This document shows positions 2,176 through 57,912 of a stretch of DNA of 64,000 nt, one piece after another. The notes beneath the pieces were generated by a model. It saw only the letters and a program-made list of their open reading frames with translations, was not told where the DNA came from and did not search any database. The translations under genes were made by a program, and so were the position numbers. Position 1 is the stretch's first letter. Every line of letters starts with the position of its first letter. The stretch is taken from positions 2,656-66,655 of the forward strand of contig JBJEEB010000041.1 of NCBI GenBank assembly GCA_051872655.1, read 5' to 3'. This DNA comes from Bacilli bacterium. GTDB taxonomy: Bacteria > Bacillota_I > Bacilli_A > RF39 > UBA660.

Positions 2176-2218
2176 AATATCACAATAAATAGTATGAAAA
2201 AAGACTTCAAATAGAAGT

Positions 2219-8696: not shown

Positions 8697-10472
8697 TTAT
8701 TTTATATTATCATATCTATAAATCATTGTAATTACTTGTTCCCTAGTACAACTATCATTAGGATAAAAAGTATTATCGCTAATTATACCTTTACTATAAG
8801 CCCAGTTAATAGCATCATAATAAAATGAATCTGTAGAAACATCAGTAAACACATTATTTGTATTTGTTTCAGGTTTTCCTGCATATCTCCATAGAACTGT
8901 AATAAATTGTGCTCTAGTTATATAAGAATTAGGGCTAAATATTGTCTTTGAGACTCCATTAATTATATTATTATCAACACCCCATTTTACTGCCCCAACA
9001 TACCAAGAAGAATTATCAATATCATTGAATCCAGTGTTTATATTAGATAATTTTGAATTACTACTATTCAGTAGTGAACCAACTAATACATCACCAGGTC
9101 TTCCCGCATATCTCCATAAAAGAGTTATAGCTTCAGCCCTACTAGCAAAGCCACCTACTCCAAATCTATTTTTATCAACACCATAAGTAATACCATTAAT
9201 ATATCCCCATTTTACAGCAGAATAAAAATAATCAGAGTTTTTAATATCATCAAATATATAATCTGTTTGGAAATTCACAATATTTGTTCTTCTAGTTTGA
9301 TCATCAAAATAAATATCAAATTTAGTATAATTTTCTGGAGTACCATCATTACTATTATCATCAATAGTGGTAAAACAATTTATATATGATACATCATTAG
9401 CCCTCAAGCCACCAAAATTATACAAATTTCCGCTAGCACTACTATTTACTACAGAAAATCCTTTAGATTTATTAGCAGTATAATACTTACTAAAACGTCC
9501 TTGATGTTCAAAAAAGAAACCAAACTTTGTATTACCAATCGACTTGCAATTTTCAATATACATAGATTCATCATTACTATACCCAGTTCCAATGCCAAAT
9601 CCAGAAGCTCCTTCACTAGAGGAACTAGCATTTTTTCCACAGTTAATAGCAGTACTATTAGTAATTTTACCATTAATTACATTATCCATACCAAATCCAG
9701 TTCCATCAGTATTCTTTACAACAACATTATCCCAATAGCAATTTCGACATAAATTAATCATAAATCCCTTACCAGAAGAATTATAACTATTTCCTCTAAC
9801 ATTTTCACCATCTATAATAAAATCATTAAAACTAACATTTTCTAAATAAATAGCATTAGTACCACCAGAATCCATCAGTTCATTCCAATAAAACATATCT
9901 AAACCATACTTAATAGTCCCAGCTTCAGCATAAGGCTTTAAAATAGTATAACTATCATCTGAAGTACCTGCTCCAGTAATAATAACACCATTTTTTGGCT
10001 TAATTACATAATCTTCAGTACCTCTTTTTGCAGAACCTCCCCTATAAAAATAATATACACCTTTAGGTATTTGAATATTTTGATTATATGAAGCATTGTC
10101 TATTAAATATTGTAGAGTTGCAGTATTATGCTTCATAGCGGTTCTTTCTTCTTCAGTAACATTATCATCTTCAAGAAAATCACCATCAATTAAATAATTA
10201 TAATTACCATTAATAGTAATATTACCATTACTACTACTATTGTTATTATTATTATATTCATTACCATTTTCAATATTATTATCAACAATATCTTCATCTA
10301 TACTCTTTTTTTCTACATAAAGAGTAGTAGAATCTAAATGATTATTTTCAAAATCAAGATTATCACTAATAGACTTCTTATGTCTCACATAAAAAAATAA
10401 AACAAGAAAAAACATTAAAACTAAAAGCACACTAATTATTATTAAAATTCTTTTTTTACCACCATTTTCCAT
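8697..10472 (-). CDS. Cell-wall-anchored surface protein: signal/TM, Asn-rich linker, right-handed parallel beta-helix domain, three C-terminal SLH domains
   Basis: Beta-helix repeats (NVVVKNTDGTGFGMDNVINGKITNSTAINCGKNASSSSEGASGFGIGTGYSNDESMYIENCKSIGN). Three SLH-like repeats at the C-terminus (FYSAVKWGYINGITYGVD..RAEAITLLWRYAG; WYVGAVKWGVDNNIINGVS..RAQFITVLWRYAG; FYYDAINWAYSKGIISDNTFYPNDSCTREQVITMIYRY). Confidence 0.7.
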   Translation of the reverse strand: MENGGKKRILIIISVLLVLMFFLVLFFYVRHKKSISDNLDFENNHLDSTTLYVEKKSIDEDIVDNNIENGNEYNNNNNSSSNGNITINGNYNYLIDGDFLEDDNVTEEERTAMKHNTATLQYLIDNASYNQNIQIPKGVYYFYRGGSAKRGTEDYVIKPKNGVIITGAGTSDDSYTILKPYAEAGTIKYGLDMFYWNELMDSGGTNAIYLENVSFNDFIIDGENVRGNSYNSSGKGFMINLCRNCYWDNVVVKNTDGTGFGMDNVINGKITNSTAINCGKNASSSSEGASGFGIGTGYSNDESMYIENCKSIGNTKFGFFFEHQGRFSKYYTANKSKGFSVVNSSASGNLYNFGGLRANDVSYINCFTTIDDNSNDGTPENYTKFDIYFDDQTRRTNIVNFQTDYIFDDIKNSDYFYSAVKWGYINGITYGVDKNRFGVGGFASRAEAITLLWRYAGRPGDVLVGSLLNSSNSKLSNINTGFNDIDNSSWYVGAVKWGVDNNIINGVSKTIFSPNSYITRAQFITVLWRYAGKPETNTNNVFTDVSTDSFYYDAINWAYSKGIISDNTFYPNDSCTREQVITMIYRYDNIK

Positions 10473-27853: not shown

Positions 27854-28348
27854 CTATTTAACCAAAGAAATAGCCCCTTCTACACATAAATAGCACAATA
27901 AAATTATTCCGCCAAATAAAAGTATCATATTGCTAACAAATCCAGAATTAGAATTAATTACTTTAGTTTTACCTTCCTCTTTTTTATTTTCCACCTTATT
28001 ATCCTCCATCAATTTATTTAAAAAATCACTCTTAGTCATAATTCCATAACACTTATACATAGATTTATCTTTTTCACCACTAAATAAATAATTTAACTTA
28101 TTTACATCATAATATGATAAAACAAAGCCAAAATCTTGATAAATCTTCTTTTTATTCTCAATATTTCTAGCAGTAATATTAATATAAGAAATATCATTTT
28201 CATCAATAATTAATGATAGTTTTTTTCCTATAATTTTAATATCAGTTTCACTAAAATTATATTCATCTTGAAATAAATAGATAGTATTATCACTAATATA
28301 ATAAGAAATATGATCAGTAAGTTTAACTTTTTTTATATTCTTCTTCAT
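27854..28348 (-). CDS. Hypothetical protein with a C-terminal TM anchor
   Basis: ORF only. Hydrophobic C-terminus ILLFGGIILLCYLCV. Confidence 0.4.
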   Translation of the reverse strand: MKKNIKKVKLTDHISYYISDNTIYLFQDEYNFSETDIKIIGKKLSLIIDENDISYINITARNIENKKKIYQDFGFVLSYYDVNKLNYLFSGEKDKSMYKCYGIMTKSDFLNKLMEDNKVENKKEEGKTKVINSNSGFVSNMILLFGGIILLCYLCVEGAISLVK

Positions 28349-28423
28349 AATTCTTAATTACCTTCCTATCTACTAATAATTTTATCATGTTACATACAAA
28401 ATTGCAAGAAAAAAAGAAGCAGT

Positions 28424-31423
28424 TTATTGCTCCCTTAAATAAGATTCTTCACCCCTTAAATATCCAATATAAACAACCTGAGCATCATCGCTATCTTCTT
28501 TACACGTAATTAAAATTATACTTTTAACATCATCATTAACATAAATACTAGCATAACCATCCTTCTTAATTTCATAACTATCACTATATATATATTGATA
28601 CTTATTGCCACCATCATAAAGATAGATTTCATCACCAAGTTCCATTTTATATAAATTACCAAAATAAGAATTATAATTATTACCATTATGTGATGCTAAT
28701 ATTATTCTATTATCGTTTTTTTCAATAATTTCAATATTATCTTTAACATTATTATGACTATTATTAACATCTACTAATCCTCTTTTTAAATTAATACTAG
28801 GTATTTCTATAAATGATGTATAACCATATTTATCATTTTCAGCAATGTCATTAACATCATTATTAAGTACTTTATCTATAGCTAACATATTTTTTTTATT
28901 ATCACTAATATAATTATAAAAATATATTCCAAAGTAAATAATACCAATAATAATAAATAAACTACTAAAAATTACTATCTTCTTATTATCCAAAAATAAT
29001 ATTAAAATAAATATAAATAAAATAATAATAACAATAATAATAAAATTTCTCATACCAACATTCATTCCAGTATTAGGAACATTTAATCTTTCATTATATA
29101 TTGTAGTTTCATATTCATCACTATCTAAAGTAAAATATATATTATTATCTAATATTCTATATCCAGTACTAGCTTCTACCTCTGCTATATAATAATCTCC
29201 ATAAGGTAAATCATCAATAACAATCATACCATTTTTATCAGTATAACCTTTATATACAACAATATTATCAGAATTTCTTATTTCAATCAAAGTATTAGAT
29301 ATTACCTCATTCGTTTTTAAATCCAATTTATGAATAATAACTTTACCTTTCTTAATATAATTATTAATATCAATCTCATAATTAATCTTTTCAGTATACT
29401 GATCCTTATATTTCAAGTCAATATCATAACTAATATCATCAAATACGTTCCCATTACTAGATTTAATTTCCTTCAAATAATACTTACCAAGGGGAATATT
29501 ATCTATTATTCCTCTTCCTTTACTATCAGTAACAATTTTATCTATTAAATCATCTTTATTATATATTAATTTATTATTTTCATATATATCATCTTTAGCA
29601 TATAACTCAAATTCAACATTATCAAGCATTATATTTTTATAATAATAACTATTATCTACATAACTAATATCTTCTCCATATTTATTAATAATAATCTTAC
29701 CCTTAACAATTTTATTATAAAAAGGAACCTCTAACATAACACCATAATTTTCATCATTAATAAAATTAGAATCTTCACCTATATAAAAATGTACACCATC
29801 TTTATTATACAAATAACCATTCATACTTTGATCAAATTCATACAAAACATACTCACCAGAATGAAGAACACTAGGTGTAATAAATTCACCATTACTAGAA
29901 ATATCAAAAGTATCTATTTCCTTAACCTCAGGGTAAGTAATTTTAAAAGAAACATATTTATTTTCTCTAACATCAAATATTTTAAATTTAATATTACTAT
30001 TAACAATATTATCTAAAGTATCAAAATCTTTCTTTACAATCTTCACTCTAGCAGTAACTTCACTATCAGATAATAGTCTATATATAGGTCTATCATCATA
30101 TTCATCAATATTAATCTTAAAATCATCAACTTTATAGTAATCCTTAGTACTAGTAATTTGTTTAAAAGTATAAATGCCATAATCTAGTTCTATACTAGCA
30201 TAACCATCATTATCTGTAACGATACTACCAATTTTATTATTATCTTTATTATATATATCAAAGACAATACCACTTTCAGTATTAAGAATACCAGTTTCAC
30301 TACTAGCAAAAACCTTAAATATATCCACTCTTCTCTTTATTATATCCTCATATACTATGATTTCTTTATTCAAATTATTTTCATCAATAACAACCTCATA
30401 AGTATTTAAATCAATCATATACCCCTCACTAGGAGTTCTTTCTTTAATATAATATTTTCCAATAGATAATTTATCTATAGTATCCTTTTTACCTGTAACA
30501 AAACTATCCACTAATTTCATATCAGAATCATATAAATCATAAATAGCACCACTTAAACTACCATCACCGCTAGGTACATTACCATTATCTCTATCAAGTT
30601 TAACTAATTTAATACTACCACTAATAATATTAAAATTAATCTTAATATTATCTTTATCTAAACCACCAGAAGACATCATTTTTTGATTATTACCAGAAGA
30701 ATATAGGAAAAATTGCTTGTCAGTATAATTAACCCTATTCAAAGTAATATAATTATTTTTAAATCCACTTTTAATAACAAGTTTATTATTATCAATAACA
30801 ACATTATCATTATCACAAACATATCTATCAAGCACATCATTAGAATCATAGAAAGAATACTCTTTTCCCAATATAACATCAATATTATCTTCAGCAAAAG
30901 AAGGTCTAGTCTTATGTTTAGTCATAAGTAAATAAATATCATTCTTCTCTTTAGATACATCGAGGTAATTATTTGTATCTATTCCAACCATATACTTAAT
31001 TGAAGCATTAGATAACCTATTCCAAATAATTTCCTGTGTAGCCATATAATATTTATCAGTATTATGTCCAGGATAGTTATAACCATAATAACTAGCTAAT
31101 TTAATATATTCTTCATCATTACTACTAAGGTTAGCTCCTTCAAAAGAATCTGTATAGGTATAATTAAAACTATCTATAGCCTTTCCAAGTTCTATGCAAT
31201 AAGCTACATCGTTTCCAAAAATATATTTACTAGCATATAAATACCTATTTCTTCCTAAATTATTATCATAATAATAAACATAAATATTATCGAATTTTTC
31301 CTTAATCAAGGTAGCATTATTTGCTCTTACTACATTACATAATGAAAACAAAAAAAATACAAATAACAAAATTTTTTTCAATAAAAACCCTCCTAAAAAA
31401 TTAATTAATTTTTGATTTTGCAA
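28424..31423 (-). CDS. Thioester-domain / Cna-B-repeat surface adhesin with a (V)PNTG sorting signal, fused in frame to a C-terminal sortase catalytic domain (999 aa)
   Basis: Signal peptide. TED signatures AYCIELGK and MATQEIIWN. Prealbumin-like Cna-B/SpaA repeats (GKYYIKERTPSEGY; GKYYLKEIKSSNGN; LPYGDYYIAEVEASTGYR). Sorting signal LNVPNTG, then TM and DNKK. A second TM follows, then sortase motifs (FIEIPSINLKRG, IILASHNG, FGNLYKMELGDEIYL, IILITCKED, YIGYLRGEE). There is no stop codon between the adhesin and sortase parts (junction nucleotides 28990-29070 read by eye). Confidence 0.7.
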   Translation of the reverse strand: MQNQKLINFLGGFLLKKILLFVFFLFSLCNVVRANNATLIKEKFDNIYVYYYDNNLGRNRYLYASKYIFGNDVAYCIELGKAIDSFNYTYTDSFEGANLSSNDEEYIKLASYYGYNYPGHNTDKYYMATQEIIWNRLSNASIKYMVGIDTNNYLDVSKEKNDIYLLMTKHKTRPSFAEDNIDVILGKEYSFYDSNDVLDRYVCDNDNVVIDNNKLVIKSGFKNNYITLNRVNYTDKQFFLYSSGNNQKMMSSGGLDKDNIKINFNIISGSIKLVKLDRDNGNVPSGDGSLSGAIYDLYDSDMKLVDSFVTGKKDTIDKLSIGKYYIKERTPSEGYMIDLNTYEVVIDENNLNKEIIVYEDIIKRRVDIFKVFASSETGILNTESGIVFDIYNKDNNKIGSIVTDNDGYASIELDYGIYTFKQITSTKDYYKVDDFKINIDEYDDRPIYRLLSDSEVTARVKIVKKDFDTLDNIVNSNIKFKIFDVRENKYVSFKITYPEVKEIDTFDISSNGEFITPSVLHSGEYVLYEFDQSMNGYLYNKDGVHFYIGEDSNFINDENYGVMLEVPFYNKIVKGKIIINKYGEDISYVDNSYYYKNIMLDNVEFELYAKDDIYENNKLIYNKDDLIDKIVTDSKGRGIIDNIPLGKYYLKEIKSSNGNVFDDISYDIDLKYKDQYTEKINYEIDINNYIKKGKVIIHKLDLKTNEVISNTLIEIRNSDNIVVYKGYTDKNGMIVIDDLPYGDYYIAEVEASTGYRILDNNIYFTLDSDEYETTIYNERLNVPNTGMNVGMRNFIIIVIIILFIFILILFLDNKKIVIFSSLFIIIGIIYFGIYFYNYISDNKKNMLAIDKVLNNDVNDIAENDKYGYTSFIEIPSINLKRGLVDVNNSHNNVKDNIEIIEKNDNRIILASHNGNNYNSYFGNLYKMELGDEIYLYDGGNKYQYIYSDSYEIKKDGYASIYVNDDVKSIILITCKEDSDDAQVVYIGYLRGEESYLREQ

Positions 31424-31580
31424 TTGCAGCCAAAGTATATAATATTTAGAAGGACAAAGTCAATATTATTTATCTTTTTTTTCAATTAAAATCTAAATAT
31501 AAAGCATTTATAAACATTTACAAGTTAAATTTGATACACTTATTCGTCCAAACAAAAGTATGAAAAAAAACATAACCAAA

Positions 31581-34589: not shown

Positions 34590-37487
34590 TTAAATTACTT
34601 TTTTCAATATTTTATCAGTTTTTAAATCTATTGAACTTATTTCACATTCAGCTCTTCTATCAAATGAATTACTAAATATTTCAATACTACCATCTAAATA
34701 ACTAATAACATACCAATCATCATTGCAATAAACTTCTTTTAAATCTAATACATCTATTGTTTCATATTGTTCCAAAGAATTATTCTTTTCTGCTTTCACA
34801 TATCTTAATGCATTAACTTTTTTATTAATTTCAATCAAATAATTTTCTTCATAAGATTTATCTGATAAATAATGCATAATCTCTTTTCTATCATCTTGAT
34901 AACTAAAATAACTTTGTCCTAAATTAAATATACCATTTCCTCTAATTAAATATTGGACATTTTTAGAATCAGAATATTCTACCGCCTCAATCGGTTGTGG
35001 TAAAATATCAACAAACTTTCTTTTAATTCCCAATTTACTTCCAAAGTCCTTATCTTTAAGATTACAAGTTTTAGCTATTAAGCAAGGATATTTTTCTATA
35101 CCTTTTATTTCTTTATCAAAATTAGTAAACCCAATAGTTACATTTTTAATACAACTATCTATTCCTTCAAATTCAAATGAAATTCTTATTAATTCATCAA
35201 TAGCTTGTAAATATACATCAAAGAAATCAACACAATCTATCTTTTTTGAAATTTCAATATTATCAAAGCACAATAAATCTCCATTTCTCCAAACCCAACT
35301 ATGTGCTAAAATCTCATTATCTTTTTTAACAACAAATATTCTTCCATTAAAACTAGTTACAGCATGTTTTAAACATGAATATCCATTACCTAACACAGTA
35401 AAACAGCAATCAGTCTTATTACCAACACATAAAGCTTCCATATTATCTAATCTTAATATTTCATAAGAATATTTATCTTTTGTTCCTGTAATTCTTGGTA
35501 TTGTAGAAGATATTCTACCTAAAATCTGATCATGTAATATTAAAGTTTCATTTACAATACTATTTGTACATCCAATAAATTTAAATATTCCCTCTAAACG
35601 ATAATATTTAGGTGGTAGTGTTATTTCATCACTTTTTAAAAATTCTATTATTGTCTTTAATGATTTATCCTTATTATTCATCTCAATCATTTTCCATTCA
35701 CTAAATATTCTAGGAAAATATTTATATAAATCACTATCTTTATTAGATAACATTCCTTTAATCCTAGAATAATTTCTATCACTAAATAATAAATTAATTA
35801 TCTTAGTATTTAGTATTGGATTACCTTGTTTATCTAAAATTACATTCTTAATATCAACATTACCTACTAAATGCTCTAATACAGGTAATGTATCATCAAT
35901 TTCTAATAAAACTCTAGCGTTATTAAATCCAACCATTAACATTAATTTTAAAATTAATTGTTTATAATTTCTAAAATGCCAGTCGCTATTTTCAAACTTT
36001 TTACATAACTGTTTATGTTGTTTAACATTATAATTTTCTAATTGTTCTACAGTAAAATCTTCTACTTTAAAATCTATACTTCCTAATCTATTTAAGATTG
36101 TTATTTCTTCAATACTAGACAGCTCATATAAAACAGTAATTGACTTACCCATAACAATTTTATAAAATAATTTTTCTATTTCTATAAAATTATTATTTTC
36201 AATATTGTTAACAATATTTTGATTTCTTAAGAACAATATAAAATTTGATAAGTGTTGTTTATAATTTTTATCACTTTTTGTAATAATATTACTTTTTAAC
36301 ATTTCTCTAAGTTCACTTAAATTTTTAAAATATTTTTCCGAAAAAATAGAAGTCATTTCATCAATTTCCTCTAATATACCATTAGTTTTAATATTACTTC
36401 TATATTTTGTTTCAACATATCTCAATGCTGATACAGATTTTTTATGCCAATAAGAAATATAAAAGTTTGTGTCAAAAAGCAATTCAATATTACCAATTTC
36501 AAAAGTATCCAATATTTCTTTAAATTTATCATTAAATATTCCAGAATTAGAACATGCTATGATCCAATCATTTAAAGTTAATGAATTAAACACTTCTTTA
36601 TCATCACTATATAAATTAATAATAATTTTTGGTTTAATACTATTATTAATTTTCTTGATATCATGGTCTTGTATTATATTTTCAAAAAAATTAGATATTA
36701 AAATTTCTTGCTTCGTTTCATCAGTTTCACTCAAATACTCTTTTAAATCATATTCAGAAATATTACTAAATGTAGTATTTAATTTATCATAATGATCACT
36801 TACAAATTCTCTATATACATCTATATCTTCAATATACCTTATAAATGTTAATAGTTCTCTTGGTTTAAATTCATTAATTTTATCTATATATTTTTCTAAT
36901 ATAAAATCCATAAATTCTTTATTATAAATTCTTTGTTGTTCAAAAGCATTATTTATATCATGCATAGTAGCCTTATCATAACAACATCTATTATGAAAAC
37001 ATAATCCATTAATAAATTTTATATTTTCTACTTGCATTAATTCAGTATAAAATTCAGTATAAAAAGAATAATACTCTTCATGTGTAAATCCATAAAATAA
37101 ATTTTCAGGATTTTGACTTATAACTTTTCTAAATACATCAATATCAATATTTCTCAATTCCTTTAATACATTAAAAGAAAGAAAATATGATAAAGATCTA
37201 GGAGCCAACATTGTATAAAGAAATATATCTTCATCATGCTCTTTAATATATTTAATATTCTCTTTTATAAATATTATTTGCTTATCTTCTGGTAATTTAC
37301 TAATAATAAAATAAACAGAAAGAGGATTCATATCGTTAATATCTTTATTACCAGTTCTAATATATTCATCGCACTCTTTAAGAGCTTTTTCTTCATTTTC
37401 TTTACTTACATTTAATGAAAGCAGTATAGATTTTTTCCCAAGTTCTTCTAACAACACTTCAATTTGTTCACTAGTTAATTCTGGCAC
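34590..37487 (-). CDS. Large hypothetical protein (965 aa), mostly alpha-helical, with a possible transglutaminase-like Cys-His-Asp core near residues 690-750
   Basis: No family recognised overall. The segment GYSCLKHAVTSFNGRIFVVKKDNEILAHSWVWRNGDLLCFDN resembles the transglutaminase-like cysteine-protease core (G.C...A...G.PAR.V.G.....HAW.E....GW...D). It starts 22 nt after the upstream AAA+ gene, so co-transcription is likely. Confidence 0.5.
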   Translation of the reverse strand: MPELTSEQIEVLLEELGKKSILLSLNVSKENEEKALKECDEYIRTGNKDINDMNPLSVYFIISKLPEDKQIIFIKENIKYIKEHDEDIFLYTMLAPRSLSYFLSFNVLKELRNIDIDVFRKVISQNPENLFYGFTHEEYYSFYTEFYTELMQVENIKFINGLCFHNRCCYDKATMHDINNAFEQQRIYNKEFMDFILEKYIDKINEFKPRELLTFIRYIEDIDVYREFVSDHYDKLNTTFSNISEYDLKEYLSETDETKQEILISNFFENIIQDHDIKKINNSIKPKIIINLYSDDKEVFNSLTLNDWIIACSNSGIFNDKFKEILDTFEIGNIELLFDTNFYISYWHKKSVSALRYVETKYRSNIKTNGILEEIDEMTSIFSEKYFKNLSELREMLKSNIITKSDKNYKQHLSNFILFLRNQNIVNNIENNNFIEIEKLFYKIVMGKSITVLYELSSIEEITILNRLGSIDFKVEDFTVEQLENYNVKQHKQLCKKFENSDWHFRNYKQLILKLMLMVGFNNARVLLEIDDTLPVLEHLVGNVDIKNVILDKQGNPILNTKIINLLFSDRNYSRIKGMLSNKDSDLYKYFPRIFSEWKMIEMNNKDKSLKTIIEFLKSDEITLPPKYYRLEGIFKFIGCTNSIVNETLILHDQILGRISSTIPRITGTKDKYSYEILRLDNMEALCVGNKTDCCFTVLGNGYSCLKHAVTSFNGRIFVVKKDNEILAHSWVWRNGDLLCFDNIEISKKIDCVDFFDVYLQAIDELIRISFEFEGIDSCIKNVTIGFTNFDKEIKGIEKYPCLIAKTCNLKDKDFGSKLGIKRKFVDILPQPIEAVEYSDSKNVQYLIRGNGIFNLGQSYFSYQDDRKEIMHYLSDKSYEENYLIEINKKVNALRYVKAEKNNSLEQYETIDVLDLKEVYCNDDWYVISYLDGSIEIFSNSFDRRAECEISSIDLKTDKILKKVI

Positions 37488-37509: not shown

Positions 37510-39093
37510 TTATTTTCTAAATTTATTAAAGTCTATTCTTAAAACTCTTTGTGCGGATTTAGATATACTTTTATCTAAACTCCTTAATCTCTCTATTGCT
37601 TGTTCTCTAGTAGATTCATAAATTCTATCACAGTATTCAAAACTTTCAATAAAATGTTCTGCTGTTATAAACTCACTATCATAAACTTTAGCAAATGCAA
37701 ACGCTTTATCAACAATAGATATTGATAAGTCAGGATTATTAACCATATCGTTATAAACTCTATGATTTTTTTCAGTAGCACTTACAATAATATCAACAAC
37801 TTGATTTCTTATATTTTCATTTTCAAATTGTATTCCATTTTTTAAATAGTAATCACCAATTACTTTATCAATTATTTGACATAAAATATCTTCAGTAGGC
37901 TCTTTAACTATAATTTTTTCAAATCTTCTTTTTAATGCATCACCACTAAAAAATTCATTATACTCTTTTTCAGTTGTTGTTCCAATTACCTTTAAATTTG
38001 ATCTATCTATATAGTGTTTTAACATAGATGCCATATCATTATCCTTACTTTTAGATGAACCAATACCATATATTGTATGAATCTCATCAATGAAAACTAT
38101 TACATCTAATTTTTCACATAACTTCATTAATTTAGTCATGTTATCTTCAAACATTCCTACATATTGACAGCCTGCAACAACATCACTAGGATTAACCTCT
38201 AAAATTATTTTCCCTTGTAAGAAACTAGGTACTTGTCCTATTTTAATTCTATATGCTAGTTCATCCACTAATGCAGTTTTTCCTACACCTGACTCTCCAA
38301 CAATTAAAGGTCTCTTTTTATCTTGTGCTAAAGTAATCATAAGATTTTTTAATTCTTTTTCTCTTCCAATAGTTGGAGGTACCATATAATTTTTCATATT
38401 TAATACTTTTCCATATTTTTCAAGTTCTAATATTTCCTTATCAGATATTTGTTGAGTCATAGTAGTAACAGTTGATCCTTGGCTTCTTGGAATATTACTT
38501 ATGTTAGAAGTTTGTATTTCAACTTCTTCTTTTTTTTCAAATTTACCATTAGTATTTTTCTTGAACATCTTATCAAATCTTTCAATTTGTATTGCCGTAT
38601 ATTGTTTTTGATAACGCATAGCTTCAATTAAATTTCTTCCTTCAGAACAAACCTTACTAGAATCAAATCCATTAGCACATAATAATTCATAAATTCCTTC
38701 TACTTCTCCTAAATAATCATCACTATAAATTGCAGTATGCATAATAGTATCTTTATCACTATCAACGTGATTAACATTTAAATTATATTTTAATGCTTCA
38801 GTAATGATACTTAAAATAAATTCTTCACTATATCCTGCATATAAAGCAGTTTGAATAAAGTTATAGTTAAAATCATCTTCTAAATTTGGATTTAGTCCTA
38901 TTTGTAATAATGATTTAATGGCAAGAAAACACTTTGTCTCATCATATTTATCATCCACTAAAATATGTAATAATGATTGATTATCTTCATCAGTATATTC
39001 TAAACTACCAAATGCTTTCTTAATCTTTCTTAAATTAGAATTTGTATCATCAGTCATCTTTGATAATAACTCTCTTATATTATTATTTAACAT
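37510..39093 (-). CDS. Ankyrin-repeat protein fused to a ClpA/ClpB-type AAA+ D1 ATPase module (single nucleotide-binding domain, 527 aa)
   Basis: N-terminus has 3-4 ANK-like repeats (QSLLHILV, NFIQTALYAGYSEE, TIMHTAIYS...ELLCANGFD). The C-terminal region aligns with ClpB NBD1: Walker A LIVGESGVGKTALVDELAYRI, GKIILEVN...VAG, Walker B VIVFIDEIHT, sensor-1 VIGTTT, arginine finger ALKRRFE. No second AAA domain. Confidence 0.7.
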   Translation of the reverse strand: MLNNNIRELLSKMTDDTNSNLRKIKKAFGSLEYTDEDNQSLLHILVDDKYDETKCFLAIKSLLQIGLNPNLEDDFNYNFIQTALYAGYSEEFILSIITEALKYNLNVNHVDSDKDTIMHTAIYSDDYLGEVEGIYELLCANGFDSSKVCSEGRNLIEAMRYQKQYTAIQIERFDKMFKKNTNGKFEKKEEVEIQTSNISNIPRSQGSTVTTMTQQISDKEILELEKYGKVLNMKNYMVPPTIGREKELKNLMITLAQDKKRPLIVGESGVGKTALVDELAYRIKIGQVPSFLQGKIILEVNPSDVVAGCQYVGMFEDNMTKLMKLCEKLDVIVFIDEIHTIYGIGSSKSKDNDMASMLKHYIDRSNLKVIGTTTEKEYNEFFSGDALKRRFEKIIVKEPTEDILCQIIDKVIGDYYLKNGIQFENENIRNQVVDIIVSATEKNHRVYNDMVNNPDLSISIVDKAFAFAKVYDSEFITAEHFIESFEYCDRIYESTREQAIERLRSLDKSISKSAQRVLRIDFNKFRK

Positions 39094-40272: not shown

Positions 40273-41745
40273 TTAATGAGCAACTTGTAATATAAGAGAA
40301 AATAAACAAAGTATAAATATATTAGCAATTGCAATAGTTACAACTATTTTAAATGCCCACTTAAACCAAGTAGAATATTCTACTTTAGCAAGAGCAAGTC
40401 CACCCATAATAGCTCCACAAGTTGGAGTAATCAAGTTAACAAGTCCATTAGCAGATACTAAAGTCATGATAGTAACTTCAACATTATAACCAAGTTGTGC
40501 TGCTAAAGGAGCAATAATAGGTGTAGATAAAGTAGCAAGTCCTGATGAAGAAGGAACTAATATAGATAATACTATATGTAATATATAGTTAAGAGGTATA
40601 AATAACATCTGAGGCATCTTAGATAATATATTAGCGGCATTATAAATAATATAATTATCTAAATATGTCTGTTTCATAAGTACACTAGCACCTCTAGCAA
40701 TAGCTATAACTAATATGACACCAATCATATCATCAGCACCATCTACAAATGTATCAACAAACCCTTTTTCTCCAAACCTATTAATAATAGCAATAATTAT
40801 TGACATTATTAAGAACCATAAAGCAGCTTCATAGAACCACCAATTACCAAGCGATGATCCAGTAAGCCATCCAGTGAATTTATCAAATATAGTTACTCCA
40901 AATTCACCCCATGGAATAAATCCTATAATCATTACAAGGAATGTTAATCCAAATAATACTAAAGTAACTTTTTGTTTACCAGATAATTTAACTTCTTTTT
41001 GTTCTGTTTTGCCATTTTCTTCATGTTCTTCAAAACTACCAAATTTCTTTTCAGCAGCTTTTTGTTCTCTTAAAGATAGGAAAGTAGACCCTTTATCTTT
41101 TTGTACTTTTTTAGCATATTTTACTACAAAGAAAGTACAAATAGCATAAGTAGTAAGCCATAAAAATACTCCTATTAAAATAACTACTCCCTGATTAGAA
41201 CTAATAGAATCTGGAAGTGCACTTAGTGCCACACCAGTAGCAAATGGATTTACTGTTGAACCTAAGCAACCCGCTCCTGCACCTAAAAGTACTACAGCAG
41301 ATCCAACAAGAGGATCCATACCAGCAGCCATCATAGTAGCGGCAAGTAATACATAGAATCCTACAGTTTCTTCAAGCATACCATAAGTTGTTCCACAAAT
41401 AGAGAATATAAACATTAAAATAGGTATTAATAATATTTCTCTTCCTTTTAATTTACGTACTAGAACCTTAATTCCTGTTTCTAATGCTCCAGTTTTATTA
41501 ACAACAGCAAGTAATCCACCAAGCATCATAATGAAAATACCAACATCTATAGCATCTTCAAAGCCTAATATTGGTGCCATTAAAATTTGTGATAATTTAG
41601 CACCTACTGTACCACTTCCATTTACAATTTCTTCACCTATAAATTTTGCATTAGGAAGAACATGAGATAATATTCCTAAAACAAATATTAATATAAGTAT
41701 GATAGAAAATGAAGAAAGTAATACCTTTTTCCTTTTTTTAGCCAT
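40273..41745 (-). CDS. YfcC-family transporter, putative arginine/ornithine antiporter of the ADI locus
   Basis: 490 aa polytopic protein of the DcuC/YfcC-like family (GALETGIKVL..., MMAAGMDPLVGSAVVLLGAGAGCLGSTVNPFATGVA). The basic N-terminus MAKKRKK and the position as last gene of the arc operon support the call. Confidence 0.6.
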   Translation of the reverse strand: MAKKRKKVLLSSFSIILILIFVLGILSHVLPNAKFIGEEIVNGSGTVGAKLSQILMAPILGFEDAIDVGIFIMMLGGLLAVVNKTGALETGIKVLVRKLKGREILLIPILMFIFSICGTTYGMLEETVGFYVLLAATMMAAGMDPLVGSAVVLLGAGAGCLGSTVNPFATGVALSALPDSISSNQGVVILIGVFLWLTTYAICTFFVVKYAKKVQKDKGSTFLSLREQKAAEKKFGSFEEHEENGKTEQKEVKLSGKQKVTLVLFGLTFLVMIIGFIPWGEFGVTIFDKFTGWLTGSSLGNWWFYEAALWFLIMSIIIAIINRFGEKGFVDTFVDGADDMIGVILVIAIARGASVLMKQTYLDNYIIYNAANILSKMPQMLFIPLNYILHIVLSILVPSSSGLATLSTPIIAPLAAQLGYNVEVTIMTLVSANGLVNLITPTCGAIMGGLALAKVEYSTWFKWAFKIVVTIAIANIFILCLFSLILQVAH

Positions 41746-41753: not shown

Positions 41754-42689
41754 TTACCTCCTCTTTATTATTGTACCTGTTTTTCCATTTATAGCATCTT
41801 TAGCTTTATCAAGTGAACTAATAATAGCTATCCTATCATTAGAATTATCTATAAAATCAAGACAAGCTTCTATTTTAGGAAGCATACTTCCTTTAGCAAA
41901 ATGTCCTTCTTTTATATACTCTTCTGCCTCTTCAATAGTTAAACTATCAAGCATAACCTCATTATCAGTATTGTAGTTCAAACATACTTTTTCAACAGCA
42001 GTTAATATAAGGAAAGTATCAGCATTTATTTCTTTAGCAAGTAAAGCTCCAGATCTATCCTTATCAATAACAGCCTCTACTCCTTTTAATCCCTCATCAG
42101 TTTTAACTACAGGTATACCACCACCACCTACTGCTATTACAATACTACCATTATCAAGAAGTTTTATTATAGAATTCTTCTCAATAATACTTTTAGGAAT
42201 TGGAGAAGGTACAACTCTCCTATAACCACGTCCAGCATCCTCAGTAAATACATAGTGTTTTTCTTTCTCTATTTCCATAGCTTTTTCTTTGCTATAGAAC
42301 ATTCCAATAGGCTTAGTTGGATTTTGAAAAGCACTATCATTACTATCTACTAGAACCTGTGTTACCAAGGATACACATTCCTTTTTAATACCTTGTCTAT
42401 TTAATTCATTTAAAATAGACTGTTGCATGTGATATCCTATATAACCTTGACTCATACTTCCACATTCAGGAAATGGCATACTAGGAGTACCAGCCTCACC
42501 ACTAGAAGCATATTCCATAGCAAGCGCTATTTGCCCCACCTGTGGACCATTACCATGTGTAAGAACTATTTCATTACCATCATTAATAAGTTCTACTATA
42601 ATTTTAGCTACATTAGATAAAAGATTTAATTGTTCATCTGGAGTTTTGCCTAAAGCATTACCACCTAATGCAATAACAATTCTACTCAT
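41754..42689 (-). CDS. arcC: Carbamate kinase
   Basis: [14 protein letters not shown] start, [21 protein letters not shown] motifs. 311 aa. Overlaps the arcAB stop by 8 nt. Confidence 0.85.
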
Positions 42690-44997
42690 TATCTTCCCTC
42701 ATAGTAGCATAAACTACAGCTTTAATAGTATGTAATCTATTTTCTGCTTCATCAAATACTTTAGACTTACTCGAAGTAAATACTTCATCAGTAACTTCCA
42801 TTTCTTTAATTCCAAATTTATCATAAATATCTTTACCAATAGTAGTCTTTAAATCATGAAAAGATGGAAGACAATGTAAGAATATAGCATTAGAATTAGC
42901 ATTATTCATGATATCCATATTAACTTGATAAGGCTTAAGCAAGTTAATCCTTTCATTCCATACTTCATCAGGTTCTCCCATAGATACCCAAACATCAGTA
43001 TAAATAACATCTGCATCTTTAGAAGCTTCCATAACATCATCTGTCATTTCTATACTACCACCAGTATTGTTAGCTATTTCTCTACATTTATTAGCAAGTT
43101 CTTCACTTGGCCATAATTCCTTTGGTCCACATGCAACAAAATGCATTCCCATTTTAGCACACACAACCATAAGAGAATTAGCAACATTATTTCTAGCATC
43201 ACCCATAAATACAAGTTTAATGCCATCCAAATGCCCAAAATTTTCTTCAACAGTCATAACGTCTGCTAACATTTGAGTTGGATGGAACTGTGTAGTAAGA
43301 CCATTCCATACGGGCACACCAGCACATCTAGCTAATTCCTCAACAATTTCTTGGTCATAACCTCTATACTCAATACCATTATACATTCTTCTCAATACTT
43401 TAGCAGTATCTTCAATACTTTCTTTTTTACCCATTTGAGAACTACCTGGATCTAAGTAAGTAACTCCCATACCCAAATCCAATCCTGCAACTTCAAAAGC
43501 ACATCTTGTTCTTGTCGAAGTTTTTTCAAATAACAAAACAATATTTTTATTATTTAAATATCTATGAGGAATACCATTATGCTTCTTTTCCTTAAAATCT
43601 TTAGCTAAATCAAGTAAATATCTAATTTCCTCAGAACTATAATCAAGTAAAGTCAAAAAGTTTCTTCCTCTTAAATCAATTTTATTACCAACTTTCTTTA
43701 CATCAGTATTATTAGAAAAATAAATATTTTCTGTTTCCACCTTAGTATCATCAAGATTATCTCTTACCAAAGGCATACTCATACATCTTGGACCGCCACG
43801 ACCACGAGATAATTCAGCACTGCTCATTTCAATTACCTTAATACCATGCTCCCTTAATATATTATTAGTAATATTATTTCTATCATAAACTACAACAACT
43901 CCAGGAGCAATACACAAAGTATTAGTACCATCATTCCACTGCTCTCTTTCAGAAGAAATTCTCTCTCCACCAGCACATGGAATCAAAGTAATCTTTCTAC
44001 CTAAATATCTTTCAAGTATCTCTTCAAGACTACCCTCAACTTTTTTAACATTCAAATCTTCATCACTATCTGGAACATCTCCTTCAGTAATTTCAAATAC
44101 CTCCAAAGTATCCATAATACCCGGATGAAATGTAAATTTATCATAATCAATTTGTGTAAATACAGTATCTAAGTGCATAAATGCTCTAGATTCTGGTATA
44201 TTAAATACCAAAATAGTATCAATTTCACAATCAGGATTCCTAAACATATTCTTAGCAAGTTCATCTATAGCTCCAGATTCAGTTCTTTGAGATATACCCA
44301 CTGCAAGGACATGATTACTTAAATTAAGAACATCGCCTCCTTCAATGTGGTAAGGCAAATATCTATCATAATATTTATTAATCTTGCCTTTATAATCAGG
44401 ATGATAATTAAATATATATTCAGCATAAATAGTCTCTCTATTTCTTGTTACAGAATACATCTTATTTAAAATAACACCATTACCTGCACTAGCAAATGGA
44501 TCCCTAGTAAAATACAAATTAGGCATAGGATCTGCCAAAAATTCAGATTCATCACTAACCAAATCAACAAGTGACTTTTCTACTTCTCTCTTTTTTCTAG
44601 GTATTTCCTCTATTTTAATACCTTCCATAGTCTTAAGAACTAGTTCTTTCTTATTAATAAAACTCTTTAAATAATCGAAAACAAGTTCTTTATATTTAGG
44701 AGTTCTAATACCAGCTTCAAAAATAAATTGTCTAATAAATTTATTTTCAATATCATCTCCAAGTTCTAGTACCTCAGCCATTAAATCTTCTAAATAAACA
44801 ACCTCAATACCATTTTCTTTTAATATGTGTGCAAATTCATCATGCTCCTTTTGTGCTTCAGGTAAAAAAGGAATATCATCAAAAAGTAATCTATTCAAAG
44901 TATCAGGAGTTAAATTAAGAAGTTCATTTCCTGGTCTATGAAGTAATACTTTTCTTAAAGTTCCAATCTCACTCTTTACATTAATAACATTATCCAT
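42682..44997 (-). CDS. arcA: Bifunctional arginine deiminase - ornithine carbamoyltransferase (ArcA-ArcB in-frame fusion, 771 aa)
   Basis: Residues 1-420 are ADI ([22 protein letters not shown]..., catalytic Cys in [13 protein letters not shown]). A 25-aa linker follows with no stop or start. Residues ~445-771 are catabolic OTCase ([53 protein letters not shown]). Junction DNA was read by eye and is in frame. Confidence 0.8.
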
Positions 44998-53114: not shown

Positions 53115-56587
<3,473 letters not shown>

Positions 56588-56647
56588 AAAAATAACATCT
56601 CCTTATTTTTAATCATAAATCCAAGCTCAAAAAAATTATAACGCGCT

Positions 56648-56818
56648 TTATCCAAAATTACAGCCCCCAAGCATACGTTTTTCATTTCTTTTTATATAAT
56701 TAAAATATTTCTTATTAAAAATAGTTTTTAACTCTTGTTCCGTAGGATTAGTCGTCCTAGTAATAAATTCTTCACTATAATTAAAATTAGTTTTTTTCTT
56801 TTCCTTTTTATTCTTCAT
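56648..56818 (-). CDS. Small basic ORF (56 aa) with a strong Shine-Dalgarno sequence upstream of the recombinase gene
   Basis: Own translation MKNKKEKKKTNFNYSEEFITRTTNPTEQELKTIFNKKYFNYIKRNEKRMLGGCNFG. AAGGGGG lies 5 nt before the ATG. It is below the ORF-track length cutoff. Confidence 0.3.
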   Translation of the reverse strand: MKNKKEKKKTNFNYSEEFITRTTNPTEQELKTIFNKKYFNYIKRNEKRMLGGCNFG

Positions 56819-56837
56819 TTTTACCCCCTTAAAGTAA

Positions 56838-56903
56838 AAAAGAACTATGATAGTCCTAATCTAATTTATGAGACAAAATATGATTTGATACAATACCATA
56901 GTT
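56838..56903. other. 11-bp inverted repeat aaagaactatg ... catagttcttt flanking a 44-nt spacer
   Basis: Read directly. It lies between cargo gene 56924..57799 and the small ORF/recombinase. Candidate terminator or recombination/transfer site. Confidence 0.4.
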
Positions 56904-56923
56904 CTTTTAACTTTTATTTTTAT

Positions 56924-57799: not shown

Positions 57800-57912
57800 A
57801 ATTTCTTTCTCTATATTTAACGTAGTAGTTTTAATTTTATCAAATTCATTATTAGCAGTATAATTACTAATTTCTTTTAATTTATTTATTATATCTATAA
57901 TTTCCCCCCCTT

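What the first reader, a model, noticed from the sequence alone, without database searches (positions are those of the whole stretch)
28424..31423. Thioester-domain adhesin fused in frame to its own sortase
Sortase substrates and sortases are normally separate genes. Here a single 999-codon ORF encodes the following, in order. A signal peptide, a TED with both signature motifs (AYCIELGK Cys motif; MATQEIIWN Gln motif), then several Cna-B/SpaA-type isopeptide-fold repeats. Next come the sorting motif LNVPNTG (fits the clostridial [SP]PxTG class), a hydrophobic helix and a DNKK tail. Then, with no stop codon, there is a second TM helix and a complete sortase catalytic domain with the catalytic His (ILASHNG), Cys (LITCKED) and Arg (YIGYLRGEE) in SrtA order. 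The predicted topology places both adhesin and sortase outside, linked by a 2-TM hairpin. One self-contained polypeptide could therefore cleave its own VPNTG in cis or in trans and attach the TED adhesin to the wall while the sortase stays in the membrane. The junction DNA (28990-29070) reads straight through.
Basis: partly seen in the sequence, partly recalled or inferred. Interest (0 to 1): 0.85.

Follow-up and report, generated by a model that had tools for sequence, protein, structure and literature searches.

The report
Surface adhesin naturally fused to its sortase
A gut bacterium of the uncultured RF39 group makes a sticky surface protein and the enzyme that normally staples such proteins to the cell wall as one continuous chain; the fusion is real, is conserved in over a hundred related genome assemblies, and I found no paper describing it.

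Summary
Window 28424..31423 (-) is one open frame (probable start TTG 31381, 985 aa). It encodes a signal peptide, a class II thioester domain, SpaA/CnaB repeats, a VPNTG sorting motif, TM1, a DNKK loop, TM2 and a sortase domain.

It is not an assembly artefact. Twenty-two species-representative genomes and at least 118 protein clusters (at 90% identity) carry the same uninterrupted ~975-1009 aa gene. In the genomes it sits at one syntenic core locus (ffh ... cdaA-cdaR) of RF39-type gut Bacilli.

Relatives keep the two parts as separate, overlapping genes: a TED adhesin ending in VPxT[GNSA]-TM-KKRK-stop, then a ~200 aa sortase. Two of those pairs lie in conjugative elements. At least one other lineage fused them independently.

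In the fused proteins VPNTG is an island of conservation between poorly conserved TM helices, and the catalytic His and Cys are kept. Continued self-processing is therefore the likeliest function, but it is untested.

- The proposed catalytic Arg is not conserved. A conserved Gln sits at the canonical Arg position across this sortase subfamily.
- The motif is [VIL]PxT[G/S/M], not [SP]PxTG.
- TQEIIW is the accessory thioester-domain motif, not the bond-forming Gln.

This is a new variant of a known system.

The parts
28424..31423 (-). Whole open reading frame (999 codons from the first TTG; the end coordinate includes the stop). The probable CDS is 28424..31381, 985 aa.
31434..31463 (-). Promoter-like site, TTGACT-18-TATACT, just upstream of the gene
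   Evidence: This is a consensus match only; promoter-like matches in the region are no more frequent than in shuffled sequence.
31389..31394 (-). Shine-Dalgarno AGGAGG, 7 nt before the TTG start at 31381
31322..31381 (-). Sec-type signal peptide, (M)KKILLFVFFLFSLCNVVRA
   Evidence: hydropathy
30629..31321 (-). Class II thioester domain (TED). Cys motif YCIE (C76, 31196..31198). Accessory motif TQEIIW (Q130, 31034..31036). Putative bond-forming Gln in NQKMM (Q247, 30683..30685).
   Evidence: Pfam TED 31.4 bits. C, Q and W are invariant in 47 orthologues. The AF2 model (pLDDT 83) matches 6fx6, the SaTIE TED, at E 6.6e-11 and TM 0.70. Motif definitions come from PMC6194298.
29090..30628 (-). Stalk of SpaA/CnaB-type (prealbumin-like) Ig-fold repeats
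   Evidence: Pfam SpaA, 5 stretches, 155 bits. The last repeat is modelled as a beta-sandwich and matches CnaB2 8bdw.
29066..29080 (-). Sorting motif VPNTG (residues 782-786), in a flexible linker
   Evidence: Column conservation is 0.8-0.9 across 119 aligned sequences, against 0.44-0.45 for the TM helices. Census: [VIL]P[NDSIK]T[GSM]. The ten-residue pLDDT block containing the motif averages 63.
28991..29047 (-). TM1, the hydrophobic segment of the former cell-wall sorting signal
   Evidence: (helix 100-120 of the model)
28979..28990 (-). Short basic cytoplasmic loop DNKK, the former charged tail of the sorting signal
   Evidence: K/R are retained in orthologues (DNKK, RNKK, ENKR, KNKY, RRVK ...)
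28916..28978 (-). TM2, the former N-terminal membrane anchor of the sortase
   Evidence: It aligns with the N-terminal TM of the standalone sortases.
28814..28915 (-). Extracellular stalk or linker between TM2 and the sortase barrel
   Evidence: helix continues to model residue 164; conservation 0.51
28427..28813 (-). Sortase catalytic domain. His912 (28688..28690), Cys974 (28502..28504), invariant Lys975, and Gln982 (28478..28480) at the canonical Arg position.
   Evidence: Pfam Sortase 44.5 bits. TIGR01076 42.6 bits against a cut-off of 39.35. Foldseek 5hu4/2kw8, E ~5e-10. Profile alignments to the PDB. Invariant columns.
28413..28436 (-). Terminator-like hairpin plus T-run overlapping the stop codon
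   Evidence: 3 such sites in the region, against 0.1 expected

Best explanation
The gene encodes a self-contained, 'self-sorting' surface adhesin.

Origin. An ancestral two-gene cassette consisted of a class II thioester-domain/SpaA-stalk adhesin with a C-terminal sorting signal, followed by an overlapping gene for its dedicated sortase. Homologous cassettes are found today in conjugative elements. A frame-joining change in the short overlap merged the two genes. The adhesin's hydrophobic segment and charged tail became TM1 and the cytoplasmic loop. The sortase's N-terminal anchor became TM2.

Proposed pathway:
1. Sec exports the adhesin.
2. The TM1-DNKK-TM2 hairpin inserts into the membrane, leaving the sortase domain outside next to the flexible VPNTG linker.
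3. The sortase Cys attacks the Thr-Gly bond of its own chain or a neighbouring chain and forms a thioacyl intermediate.
4. The intermediate is resolved by the peptidoglycan precursor amine. Published genome annotation predicts an m-DAP-type wall for RF39.
5. The adhesin ends up wall-linked and a two-TM sortase fragment stays in the membrane.

Shown here: the architecture, the folds, the topology-compatible hydropathy, the conservation, the unfused ancestral-type pairs and the vertical inheritance.

Inferred: cleavage at VPNT|G, cis versus trans, the acceptor, and the thioester-mediated adhesion itself.
For: Architecture and folds:
- One ORF with TED, SpaA x5 and Sortase.
- The AF2 model has a helical hairpin (helices 100-120 and 125-164) between a SpaA sandwich and a sortase barrel, pLDDT 88.5.
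- The sortase fold is confirmed against class A sortases and the TED fold against SaTIE.

The fusion is real and under selection:
- 22 species-representative genomes carry an uninterrupted 975-1009 aa ORF.
- 118 of the 120 listed full-length clusters keep both the motif and the sortase domain. Some clusters have more than 3000 members and lie on contigs up to 1.68 Mb.
- Synteny ffh ... fusion-hyp164-cdaA-cdaR is conserved in all of them.

The motif is still constrained:
- VPNTG scores 0.8-0.9 conservation between TM helices at about 0.45. P and T are invariant in every motif recovered. His and Cys are retained in nearly all.
- K/R are retained in the loop.

The sortase is the adhesin's cognate enzyme:
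- In L026, L027, L039 and L041, homologous adhesins end in VPKTS, VPDTA, VPNTG or VPDTN, then a TM and a basic tail, then a stop that overlaps the start of a homologous sortase gene.
- The adhesin is collinear with the conjugative-element adhesin right up to VPNTG.

Other support:
- The overlap in L039 contains an A7 run, so a 1-nt indel would join the two frames.
- Independent fusions exist, for example P0322, which has 4 members on 7 contigs at a different locus.
- Engineered sortase-LPXTG fusions are used as self-cleaving tags, which shows the chemistry is feasible within one chain (PMC2901362).
- Most RF39 species are predicted to have a peptidoglycan wall (PMC10868615). CAG-302 is placed in order RF39 (PMC7676259).
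Against: - There is no experimental or proteomic evidence of cleavage.
- The canonical catalytic Arg is replaced by Gln, so activity cannot be assumed from textbook residues. The same Gln occurs in the standalone relatives that have normal sorting-signal substrates, which softens this point.
- The residue after the scissile Thr varies: G, S or M within the clade, and F, K or Y in other fused lineages. That is looser than classical LPXTG.
- I could not read model coordinates, so nothing shows the motif can reach the active site in cis.
- The wall type of this particular organism is inferred from the literature, plus an SLH-domain protein and a polysaccharide deacetylase in the window. It was not shown directly.
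- A stoichiometric enzyme-substrate fusion is an odd economy for a multi-turnover enzyme.
Confidence: 0.6

Rival explanations
1. The protein is a permanently membrane-anchored adhesin and the chain is never cut. The two-TM hairpin is the anchor. The sortase domain either works only on other substrates in trans or is a retained, non-catalytic module.
For: - The canonical Arg is missing.
- The P1' residue is variable.
- TIEpLS20, a class II TED conjugation adhesin, functions without any sortase or sorting signal (PMC8092201).
- No other sorting-signal protein is present in the 64 kb window, but the rest of the genome was not seen.
Against: - The V-P-x-T core is an island of conservation in an otherwise fast-evolving linker and TM region. 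That is hard to explain if the motif is never recognised.
- His and Cys are kept in nearly all orthologues.
- The Gln variant is shared with standalone sortases that sit next to ordinary sorting-signal substrates, so it is a family trait and not decay.
Confidence: 0.17
2. The protein polymerises like a pilus. The tethered sortase joins the Thr of one adhesin to a Lys of the next membrane-held adhesin, building covalent fibres from the base, as class C sortases do.
For: - The best class-specific NCBIfam hit is class C sortase (32 bits).
- SpaA-type domains are typical of pilins.
- The membrane-tethered geometry would suit base-growth polymerisation (inference).
Against: - The class C score is far below the 160-bit cut-off.
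- The nearest structures are class A housekeeping sortases.
- The AF2 secondary-structure map shows one long helix running from TM2 into the stalk and no separate helix that would suggest a class C lid, but the coordinates were not inspected.
- I did not notice a YPKN-type pilin motif when reading the sequence; no systematic search was run.
- The 800-aa TED-tipped stalk matches monomeric TIE adhesins such as BaTIE (PMC6194298).
Confidence: 0.1
3. The protein releases itself. The sortase domain uses water or a small amine as nucleophile and sheds the adhesin from the cell.
For: Sortases hydrolyse slowly when no nucleophile is present (established enzymology, from my own knowledge). Some relatives of this bacterial group lack peptidoglycan (PMC10868615).
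Against: - Most RF39 species are predicted to be walled.
- The window encodes an SLH-domain protein and a polysaccharide deacetylase, which suggests a wall.
- A shed covalent adhesin has no obvious use.
Confidence: 0.05
4. The fusion is an artefact: a sequencing or assembly indel, or a decaying pseudogene, joining two genes that are really separate.
For: - In unfused relatives the overlap contains A-runs prone to indel errors.
- The fused singletons P0284 and P0320 rest on one contig each.
- Two apparently long-read assemblies (judged from record names), L001 and L025, show broken frames.
Against: - The window junction has no homopolymer of 6 or more bases.
- The same read-through is seen in 22 genomes and at least 118 clusters from ENA, NCBI, JGI and Logan, at 50-93% identity.
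- In L001 the neighbouring cdaA is split as well, which points to assembly noise.
Confidence: 0.01

Closest known systems
Adhesin plus dedicated sortase cassettes of Firmicute conjugative elements. Loci L039-L042 here; C. perfringens pCW3 SrtD is a characterised case of a conjugation-linked sortase (PMC8225981).
   Same: - Homologous TED/SpaA adhesin (39% identity, collinear to the VPNTG motif) and homologous sortase (40% identity), in the same order.
- The same [VI]PxT-type motif.
- The same TCK...Q sortase signature.
   Different: - There, the two are separate genes overlapping by about 23 nt and embedded among T4SS genes.
- Here, they form one ORF at a conserved chromosomal housekeeping locus with no adjacent transfer genes.
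- I did not test whether pCW3 SrtD/CnaC itself is a close homologue. C. perfringens SrtD (4d70) retains the catalytic Arg.
Class II TED 'TIE' adhesins: BaTIE, SaTIE, EfmTIE86, TIEpLS20 (PMC6194298, PMC8092201)
   Same: - An N-terminal class II thioester domain; the only significant PDB fold match is SaTIE-TED 6fx6.
- A CnaB/SpaA stalk and an LPXTG-like motif near the C-terminal end of the adhesin part.
   Different: - Known TIE proteins end after the sorting signal and rely on a separately encoded sortase. TIEpLS20 uses none.
- This protein continues into the sortase itself.
Class A (housekeeping) sortases, such as B. anthracis SrtA 2kw8 and L. monocytogenes SrtA 5hu4
   Same: - Best sequence and fold matches.
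- A single N-terminal TM anchor followed by a linker and an 8-stranded barrel.
- His and TLxTC Cys are present.
   Different: - No class-level NCBIfam model reaches its cut-off.
- Gln replaces the catalytic Arg and an invariant Lys follows the Cys.
- The motif is VPxT rather than LPxTG.
- The enzyme is fused to its substrate.
Engineered self-cleaving sortase-LPXTG fusion tags (for example the BISOP method, PMC2901362)
   Same: Enzyme and recognition motif are in one polypeptide, and the sortase cuts the motif of the fusion protein.
   Different: Those are artificial, soluble, use S. aureus SrtA, and have no membrane hairpin. This is a natural membrane protein with the opposite order (substrate first, enzyme last).
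Autotransporters (type V secretion) of Gram-negative bacteria, as a conceptual analogue (from my own knowledge)
   Same: A surface passenger and the machinery that displays it are encoded in one chain, and the passenger is often cleaved off afterwards.
   Different: The fold, chemistry and envelope are unrelated. There is no homology.

Membership tests
Sortase superfamily (Pfam PF04203 / TIGR01076) | Profile match above the curated cut-off | tested here: met
   PF04203 scores 44.5 bits against 26.6. TIGR01076 scores 42.6 against 39.35 for the C-terminal 208 aa, but 38.9, just under the cut-off, for the whole protein.
Sortase superfamily (Pfam PF04203 / TIGR01076) | Eight-stranded beta-barrel sortase fold | tested here: met
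   AF2 pLDDT 88.5. Foldseek hits 5hu4, 2kw8 and 7f87 at E ~1e-9 to 1e-10, TM (target) 0.66-0.72.
Sortase superfamily (Pfam PF04203 / TIGR01076) | Catalytic His and TLxTC Cys | tested here: met
   H912 (LASHNG) and C974 (LITC) are invariant in 58 homologues and align to the catalytic residues of solved sortases.
Sortase superfamily (Pfam PF04203 / TIGR01076) | Catalytic Arg about 9-13 residues after the Cys | tested here: not met
The profile position aligned to the Arg of the B. anthracis SrtA, C. perfringens SrtD and L. monocytogenes SrtA chains is a nearly invariant Gln (Q982). The whole subfamily shares this, with rare H or R variants.
Sortase classes A-F (NCBIfam class models) | Class-specific model above its cut-off | tested here: not met
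   Class C scores 32 against 160. Class D scores 14-21 against 140-165. No other class-level model appeared at E <= 0.1. It is an unclassed subfamily, closest in fold to class A.
Cell-wall sorting signal (LPXTG-type) | Pentapeptide motif with invariant P and T | tested here: met
   VPNTG. P and T are invariant in every motif recovered from 118 orthologue clusters. Position 1 is V/I/L and position 5 is G/S/M.
Cell-wall sorting signal (LPXTG-type) | Hydrophobic segment followed by a positively charged tail | tested here: met
   TM1 (793-811), then DNKK. K/R are retained in orthologues.
Cell-wall sorting signal (LPXTG-type) | Located at the extreme C terminus of the substrate | tested here: not met
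   184 further residues follow the charged loop: TM2, stalk and sortase. This is the point of novelty.
Cell-wall sorting signal (LPXTG-type) | Cleaved after Thr and linked to peptidoglycan | not testable with these tools
   Needs biochemistry or mass spectrometry.
Class II thioester domain (TIE adhesins) | [YFL]C(phi)(zeta) Cys motif, TQxx(phi)W motif, and (phi)Q(zeta)(phi)(phi) bond-forming Gln | tested here: met
   YCIE (C76), TQEIIW (Q130, W134) and NQKMM (Q247). C, both Q and W are invariant in 47 orthologues. The Cys-Gln spacing of 171 residues equals that of SaTIE Cys296/Gln467. Assigning Q247 as the bond-forming Gln is an inference.
Class II thioester domain (TIE adhesins) | Class II TED fold (head domain plus inserted beta-sandwich) | tested here: met
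   The model (pLDDT 83) has one significant PDB hit, 6fx6 SaTIE-TED: E 6.6e-11, 248 columns, TM 0.64/0.70. Pfam TED scores 31.4 against 22.
Class II thioester domain (TIE adhesins) | An internal Cys-Gln thioester actually forms | not testable with these tools
   Needs intact-mass measurement (-17 Da) or a crystal structure.
Conjugative-element adhesin/sortase cassette | Embedded among T4SS or transfer genes | tested here: not met
   The neighbours are ffh, ASCH, DUF4186, a 164-aa protein, cdaA and cdaR, syntenic in 22 species. The window's own transfer genes lie more than 25 kb away at about 54-63 kb. Relatives L039-L042 do meet this feature.

The most novel reading that the evidence does not exclude
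These proteins form a distinct, recurrently evolved class of 'autosortases'. In this reading the adhesin is processed obligatorily in cis by its own tethered sortase. That sortase would be a single-turnover enzyme using a His-Cys-Gln(-Lys) active site and needing only [VI]PxT. A genome-reduced RF39 symbiont would then decorate its wall with a covalent-binding adhesin from one gene, with no separate housekeeping sortase.
Probability: 0.3. Interest if true: 0.8.

Novelty: new variant of a known kind. Interest (0 to 1): 0.66.

Why it matters
Sortase biology assumes a separate, multi-turnover enzyme that meets its substrates in the membrane. A natural, conserved and repeatedly evolved fusion of substrate and enzyme has several consequences.

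- **A one-gene model system.** It allows direct tests of how a sortase engages a membrane-retained sorting signal, including cis versus trans action, linker geometry, and the fate of the C-terminal fragment.
- **An unusual active site.** A whole sortase subfamily appears to work with Gln in place of the 'essential' Arg and tolerates many residues after the scissile Thr. That bears on mechanism and on protein-ligation tools.
- **Domestication of a mobile-element cassette.** It is consistent with a conjugation-type adhesin cassette having been taken over as a core surface protein in RF39, an abundant, uncultured, genome-reduced human-gut lineage whose surface biology is unknown.
- **Annotation.** Surveys that look for standalone srtA/srtB genes, and substrate predictors that require a C-terminal sorting signal, may miss this protein. 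That could distort inferences about surface display in these lineages.

Tried and rejected
- **Artefact hypothesis.** I looked for stops, frameshifts and homopolymers at the junction in the window and 22 loci. None were found in the window. Broken copies occur only in two assemblies whose record names suggest long-read data, where neighbouring genes are also broken, and in one collapsed scaffold (L001, L025, L002).
- **Separate internal translation start for the sortase.** There is no Shine-Dalgarno sequence at the junction in most orthologues. Only L017 and L018 have a strong AGGAGG there, from Gly codons; a few others have incidental 4-5 nt matches.
Rejected by alignment.
- **Membership of sortase class C or D.** Scores are far below the cut-offs.
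- **A second sortase substrate in the window.** Scanning all ORFs for xPxT[GSANM] followed by a hydrophobic stretch found only this gene.
- **Peptidoglycan synthesis genes in the window.** None were found. Only an SLH-domain protein and a polysaccharide deacetylase point to a wall.
- **Literature.** Searches for natural sortase-substrate fusions returned only engineered fusions. A 2021 sortase review does not contain the word 'fused'. The library lacks most subscription journals, so absence is not proof.
- **Source names.** No cluster read carries a name.
- **dN/dS.** Not attempted. The closest DNA-level orthologues are about 72% identical in protein in a 24% GC genome, so synonymous sites would be saturated.


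Full report
**1. The observation**

The minus strand of window 28424..31423 carries one 999-codon ORF with no stop between the sorting-signal-like segment and the sortase-like segment. An AGGAGG lies 7 nt before an in-frame TTG at 31381. Starting there gives MKKILLFVFFLFSLCNVVRA..., a typical Sec signal peptide, and a 985-aa product, the same length as the nearest orthologues.

A promoter-like site (31463..31434) and a terminator-like hairpin over the stop codon (28436..28413) bracket the gene, so it looks monocistronic. The promoter hit is a consensus match only.

Hydropathy finds exactly three hydrophobic segments: the signal peptide, residues 793-811 and residues 816-836.

Profile results:
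- Pfam TED: 31.4 bits against a cut-off of 22.
- Pfam SpaA: five stretches, 155 bits.
- Pfam Sortase: 44.5 bits against 26.6, at residues 872-978.
- NCBIfam general sortase model TIGR01076: passes on the C-terminal 208 aa (42.6 against 39.35). No class-specific model comes near its cut-off.

**2. Structure**

An AlphaFold2 model of residues 690-999, built on 58 homologues, is confident (pLDDT 88.5). It shows a SpaA beta-sandwich, then a lower-confidence linker holding VPNTG. Two helices follow, joined by a four-residue turn at DNKK, the second extending about 20 residues beyond the membrane. Last comes a beta-barrel. Foldseek against the PDB returns class A sortases first: L. monocytogenes SrtA 5hu4, B. 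anthracis SrtA 2kw8 and L. rhamnosus SrtA 7f87, at E about 1e-9 to 1e-10 and target TM 0.66-0.72. CnaB2 domains match the first part.

A model of the N-terminal 261 residues (pLDDT 83) has a single significant PDB match, the class II thioester domain of the S. aureus TIE protein 6fx6 (E 6.6e-11, 248 aligned columns).

**3.

(a) *The catalytic Arg.* The proposed Arg (YLRGEE, R990) is K, E, D or I in homologues. In HMMER alignments to solved sortases, the column that holds the catalytic Arg (R196 in B. anthracis SrtA numbering, from my own knowledge) and the equivalent Arg of C. perfringens SrtD and L. monocytogenes SrtA is occupied by Gln982 (DDAQVVY). This Gln is at least 90% conserved across 58 homologues. 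The residue right after the catalytic Cys is an invariant Lys (TCK). Among the homologues printed, most carry TCK...Q, with rare H or R variants. The more distant L028 sortase has TCT...QRR. So the domain is a sortase with a His-Cys-Gln signature rather than His-Cys-Arg.

(b) *The motif class.* VPNTG does not literally fit [SP]PxTG. In 118 full-length orthologue clusters the motif is [VIL]-P-[NDSIK]-T-[GSM], with whole sub-clades carrying VPNTS or VPNTM.

(c) *The Gln motif.* TQEIIW is the accessory TQxx(phi)W motif of thioester domains. [quoted passage not shown] Invariant Q247 (NQKMM) fits. It lies 171 residues after the invariant Cys76, the same spacing as SaTIE Cys296/Gln467. This assignment is an inference.

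**4. Is the fusion real?**

A search with the C-terminal 224 aa found fragments at 47-93% identity that read through the motif, TM, basic loop, second TM and sortase.

A scan of one genome per GTDB species returned 22 genomes with one uninterrupted 975-1009 aa ORF of the same architecture. They include human-gut MAGs labelled uncultured Bacilli or Tenericutes, Clostridium sp. CAG:302, Firmicutes CAG:321 and UBA3620.

The full-length search gave 486 hits at E < 1e-30. The top 120 clusters at 90% identity are all 940-1008 aa, and all but a few carry precomputed SpaA plus Sortase domains. Some have more than 1000-3000 member sequences and lie on contigs up to 1.68 Mb. Of these 120, one is an assembly chimera and one is truncated. 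The other 118 keep both the motif and the sortase domain.

The only broken copies are in two assemblies whose record names suggest long-read data, where cdaA is also fragmented in one, and in one collapsed scaffold. The window junction has no homopolymer of 6 or more bases. An artefact is excluded for practical purposes.

**5. Genomic setting**

In every one of these genomes the gene lies between ffh (with small ASCH, CotD-like and DUF4186 genes) and a conserved 164-aa membrane protein followed by cdaA and cdaR.

CdaA is 89-96% identical across the set and Ffh 86-95%. The C-terminal ~300 residues of the fusion are only 49-76% identical. The gene is thus a vertically inherited, fast-evolving but intact core gene.

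CAG-302 is placed in order RF39 (PMC7676259). Most RF39 species are predicted to keep an m-DAP-type peptidoglycan wall (PMC10868615). The window itself (about 24% GC) encodes an SLH-domain protein and a polysaccharide deacetylase.

**6. Where it came from**

The nearest standalone sortases (about 40% identity, ~211 aa) lie immediately downstream of 816-835 aa TED/SpaA adhesins and overlap them by about 23 nt. Those adhesins end ...EVPNTG-TM-GIKKRK-stop or ...EVPDTN-TM-GQNRKK-stop. The pairs sit inside conjugative elements with a T4SS pilin, a VirB4-like ATPase, SSB and DUF3846.

The window's adhesin part is collinear with such an adhesin over 796 residues (39% identity, E 5e-163), ending exactly at VPNTG.

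Rabbit-gut relatives show the same split, overlapping arrangement in a chromosomal-looking context: L026, L027 and L028, with motifs VPKTS, VPDTA and MPVTS.

The overlap in L039 reads GGCATCAAAAAAAGAAAATAG. A one-base indel in the A-run would place the sortase frame behind the adhesin frame, producing TM1-basic loop-TM2, which is exactly what is seen here (inference).

**7. Recurrence**

An exhaustive HMMER search of 1.84 billion cluster representatives found 997 relatives, mostly 170-230 aa standalone enzymes. It also found other long proteins with the sortase at the C terminus:
- P0322: 896 aa, VPNTY.
- P0284: 1184 aa, VPNTF.
- P0320: 680 aa, IPDTK.

A rough neighbour-joining tree of sortase domains puts the window's clade as one monophyletic fused group. 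The other three each nest among standalone sortases.

P0322 is backed by four members on seven contigs from NCBI, ENA and Logan, and sits at a different locus next to a Mur ligase. P0284 and P0320 are singletons and could be indel errors. At least one further independent fusion is therefore credible.

**8. Is the sorting motif still used?**

Column conservation was measured in an alignment of the window protein with 118 full-length orthologues:

| Region | Mean conservation |
|---|---|
| V, P, N, T, G of the motif | 0.9, 0.9, 0.8, 0.9, 0.8 |
| TM1 | 0.44 |
| TM2 | 0.45 |
| Extracellular stalk | 0.51 |
| Sortase domain | 0.70 |

The loop keeps K/R. His and Cys are present in nearly all orthologues. 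There is no conserved internal ribosome-binding site that would make a separate sortase.

These patterns fit continued recognition of the motif by an active sortase. They do not fit a relic motif in a permanently membrane-anchored protein.

**9. Mechanism proposed**

The model is export, hairpin insertion, attack of Cys974 on the Thr785-Gly786 bond of the same or a neighbouring chain, and transfer to the peptidoglycan precursor. A two-TM sortase fragment is left behind.

The topology is right for both halves. The adhesin and the sortase are both outside, the basic loop is inside, and TM2 aligns with the N-terminal anchor of the standalone sortases. The distances of the motif and the barrel from the membrane look comparable to those in ordinary substrate-sortase pairs (read from the sequence and from my own knowledge of SrtA). 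Engineered sortase-LPXTG fusions are used as self-cleaving tags (PMC2901362).

The steps not shown are cleavage itself, cis versus trans, the acceptor, the effect of Arg-to-Gln, and thioester formation.

**10. Rivals**

- An uncleaved membrane adhesin: about 0.17.
- Pilus-like polymerisation in trans: about 0.10.
- Self-shedding: about 0.05.
- Artefact: about 0.01.

Evidence for and against each is given in the rival explanations.

**11. Novelty**

Every component is known: class II TED adhesins, SpaA stalks, LPXTG-like signals, sortases, and adhesin/sortase cassettes on conjugative elements. What I could not find described is their natural fusion into one polypeptide through a hairpin.

Full-text searches returned only engineered fusions. 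A 2021 review of sortase roles does not contain the word 'fused'. No database source names these proteins. The library omits most subscription journals, so prior mention cannot be ruled out.

I rate it a new variant of a known kind. It is of real interest to sortase and surface-protein specialists and to those studying RF39. The His-Cys-Gln signature is a second point worth following.

Noticed in passing
window 28478..28504 (-), and homologues P0001-P0107: The whole sortase subfamily, standalone and fused, has a conserved Gln where the canonical catalytic Arg sits, and an invariant Lys right after the catalytic Cys (TCK...Q). Rare members have H or R. The distant L028 sortase has TCT...QRR.
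   Followed up: partly
window 42682..44997 (-): A 771-aa ORF fuses arginine deiminase (residues 36-412) to ornithine carbamoyltransferase (445-764). Carbamate kinase (41754..42689) and a DcuC-type carrier (40273..41745) follow. This is an ADI-pathway operon with its first two enzymes in one chain, a second enzyme fusion in the same window.
   Followed up: no
window ~53100..63400 (-): A block that looks like an integrative/conjugative element: a collagen-triple-helix repeat protein (53115..54536), a large serine recombinase (54518..56587), a C-5 DNA methylase (58951..60087), a VirD4/TraG-type coupling protein (60077..61756) and a MobL relaxase (61929..63356). It contains no adhesin/sortase pair of its own.
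   Followed up: no
window 8697..10472 (-) and 1192..2244 (-): An SLH-domain protein and a polysaccharide deacetylase, which are indirect signs that this reduced-genome organism keeps a wall with secondary polymers.
   Followed up: no
window 27854..28348 (-): A 164-aa protein with a C-terminal TM helix and no Pfam family lies immediately downstream of the fusion gene. It is conserved at that position in 22 of the 23 related loci (49-79% identity; L021 ends before it). A functional link to the adhesin is possible but untested.
   Followed up: partly
L039 5980..6040 (also L041 and L026): In unfused relatives the adhesin stop and the sortase start overlap by 17-23 nt in a Lys-codon A-run (A7 in L039). 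A 1-nt slip would fuse the frames. This explains the origin of the fusion, and raises the untested possibility of occasional slippage-derived fused products even in 'split' systems.
   Followed up: partly
window 34590..37487 (-) and 37510..39093 (-): A 965-aa ORF with no Pfam match lies next to a 527-aa AAA/STAND-like ATPase. The pair was not characterised.
   Followed up: no
L001, L025, L002; proteins P0009, P0144: Two assemblies whose record names suggest long-read data show the fusion gene broken into pieces; in L001 cdaA is split too. One scaffold has collapsed SpaA repeats. Two database proteins are chimeras of the sortase or adhesin with unrelated sequence. These are assembly noise to keep in mind when counting 'split' versus 'fused' states.
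   Followed up: partly
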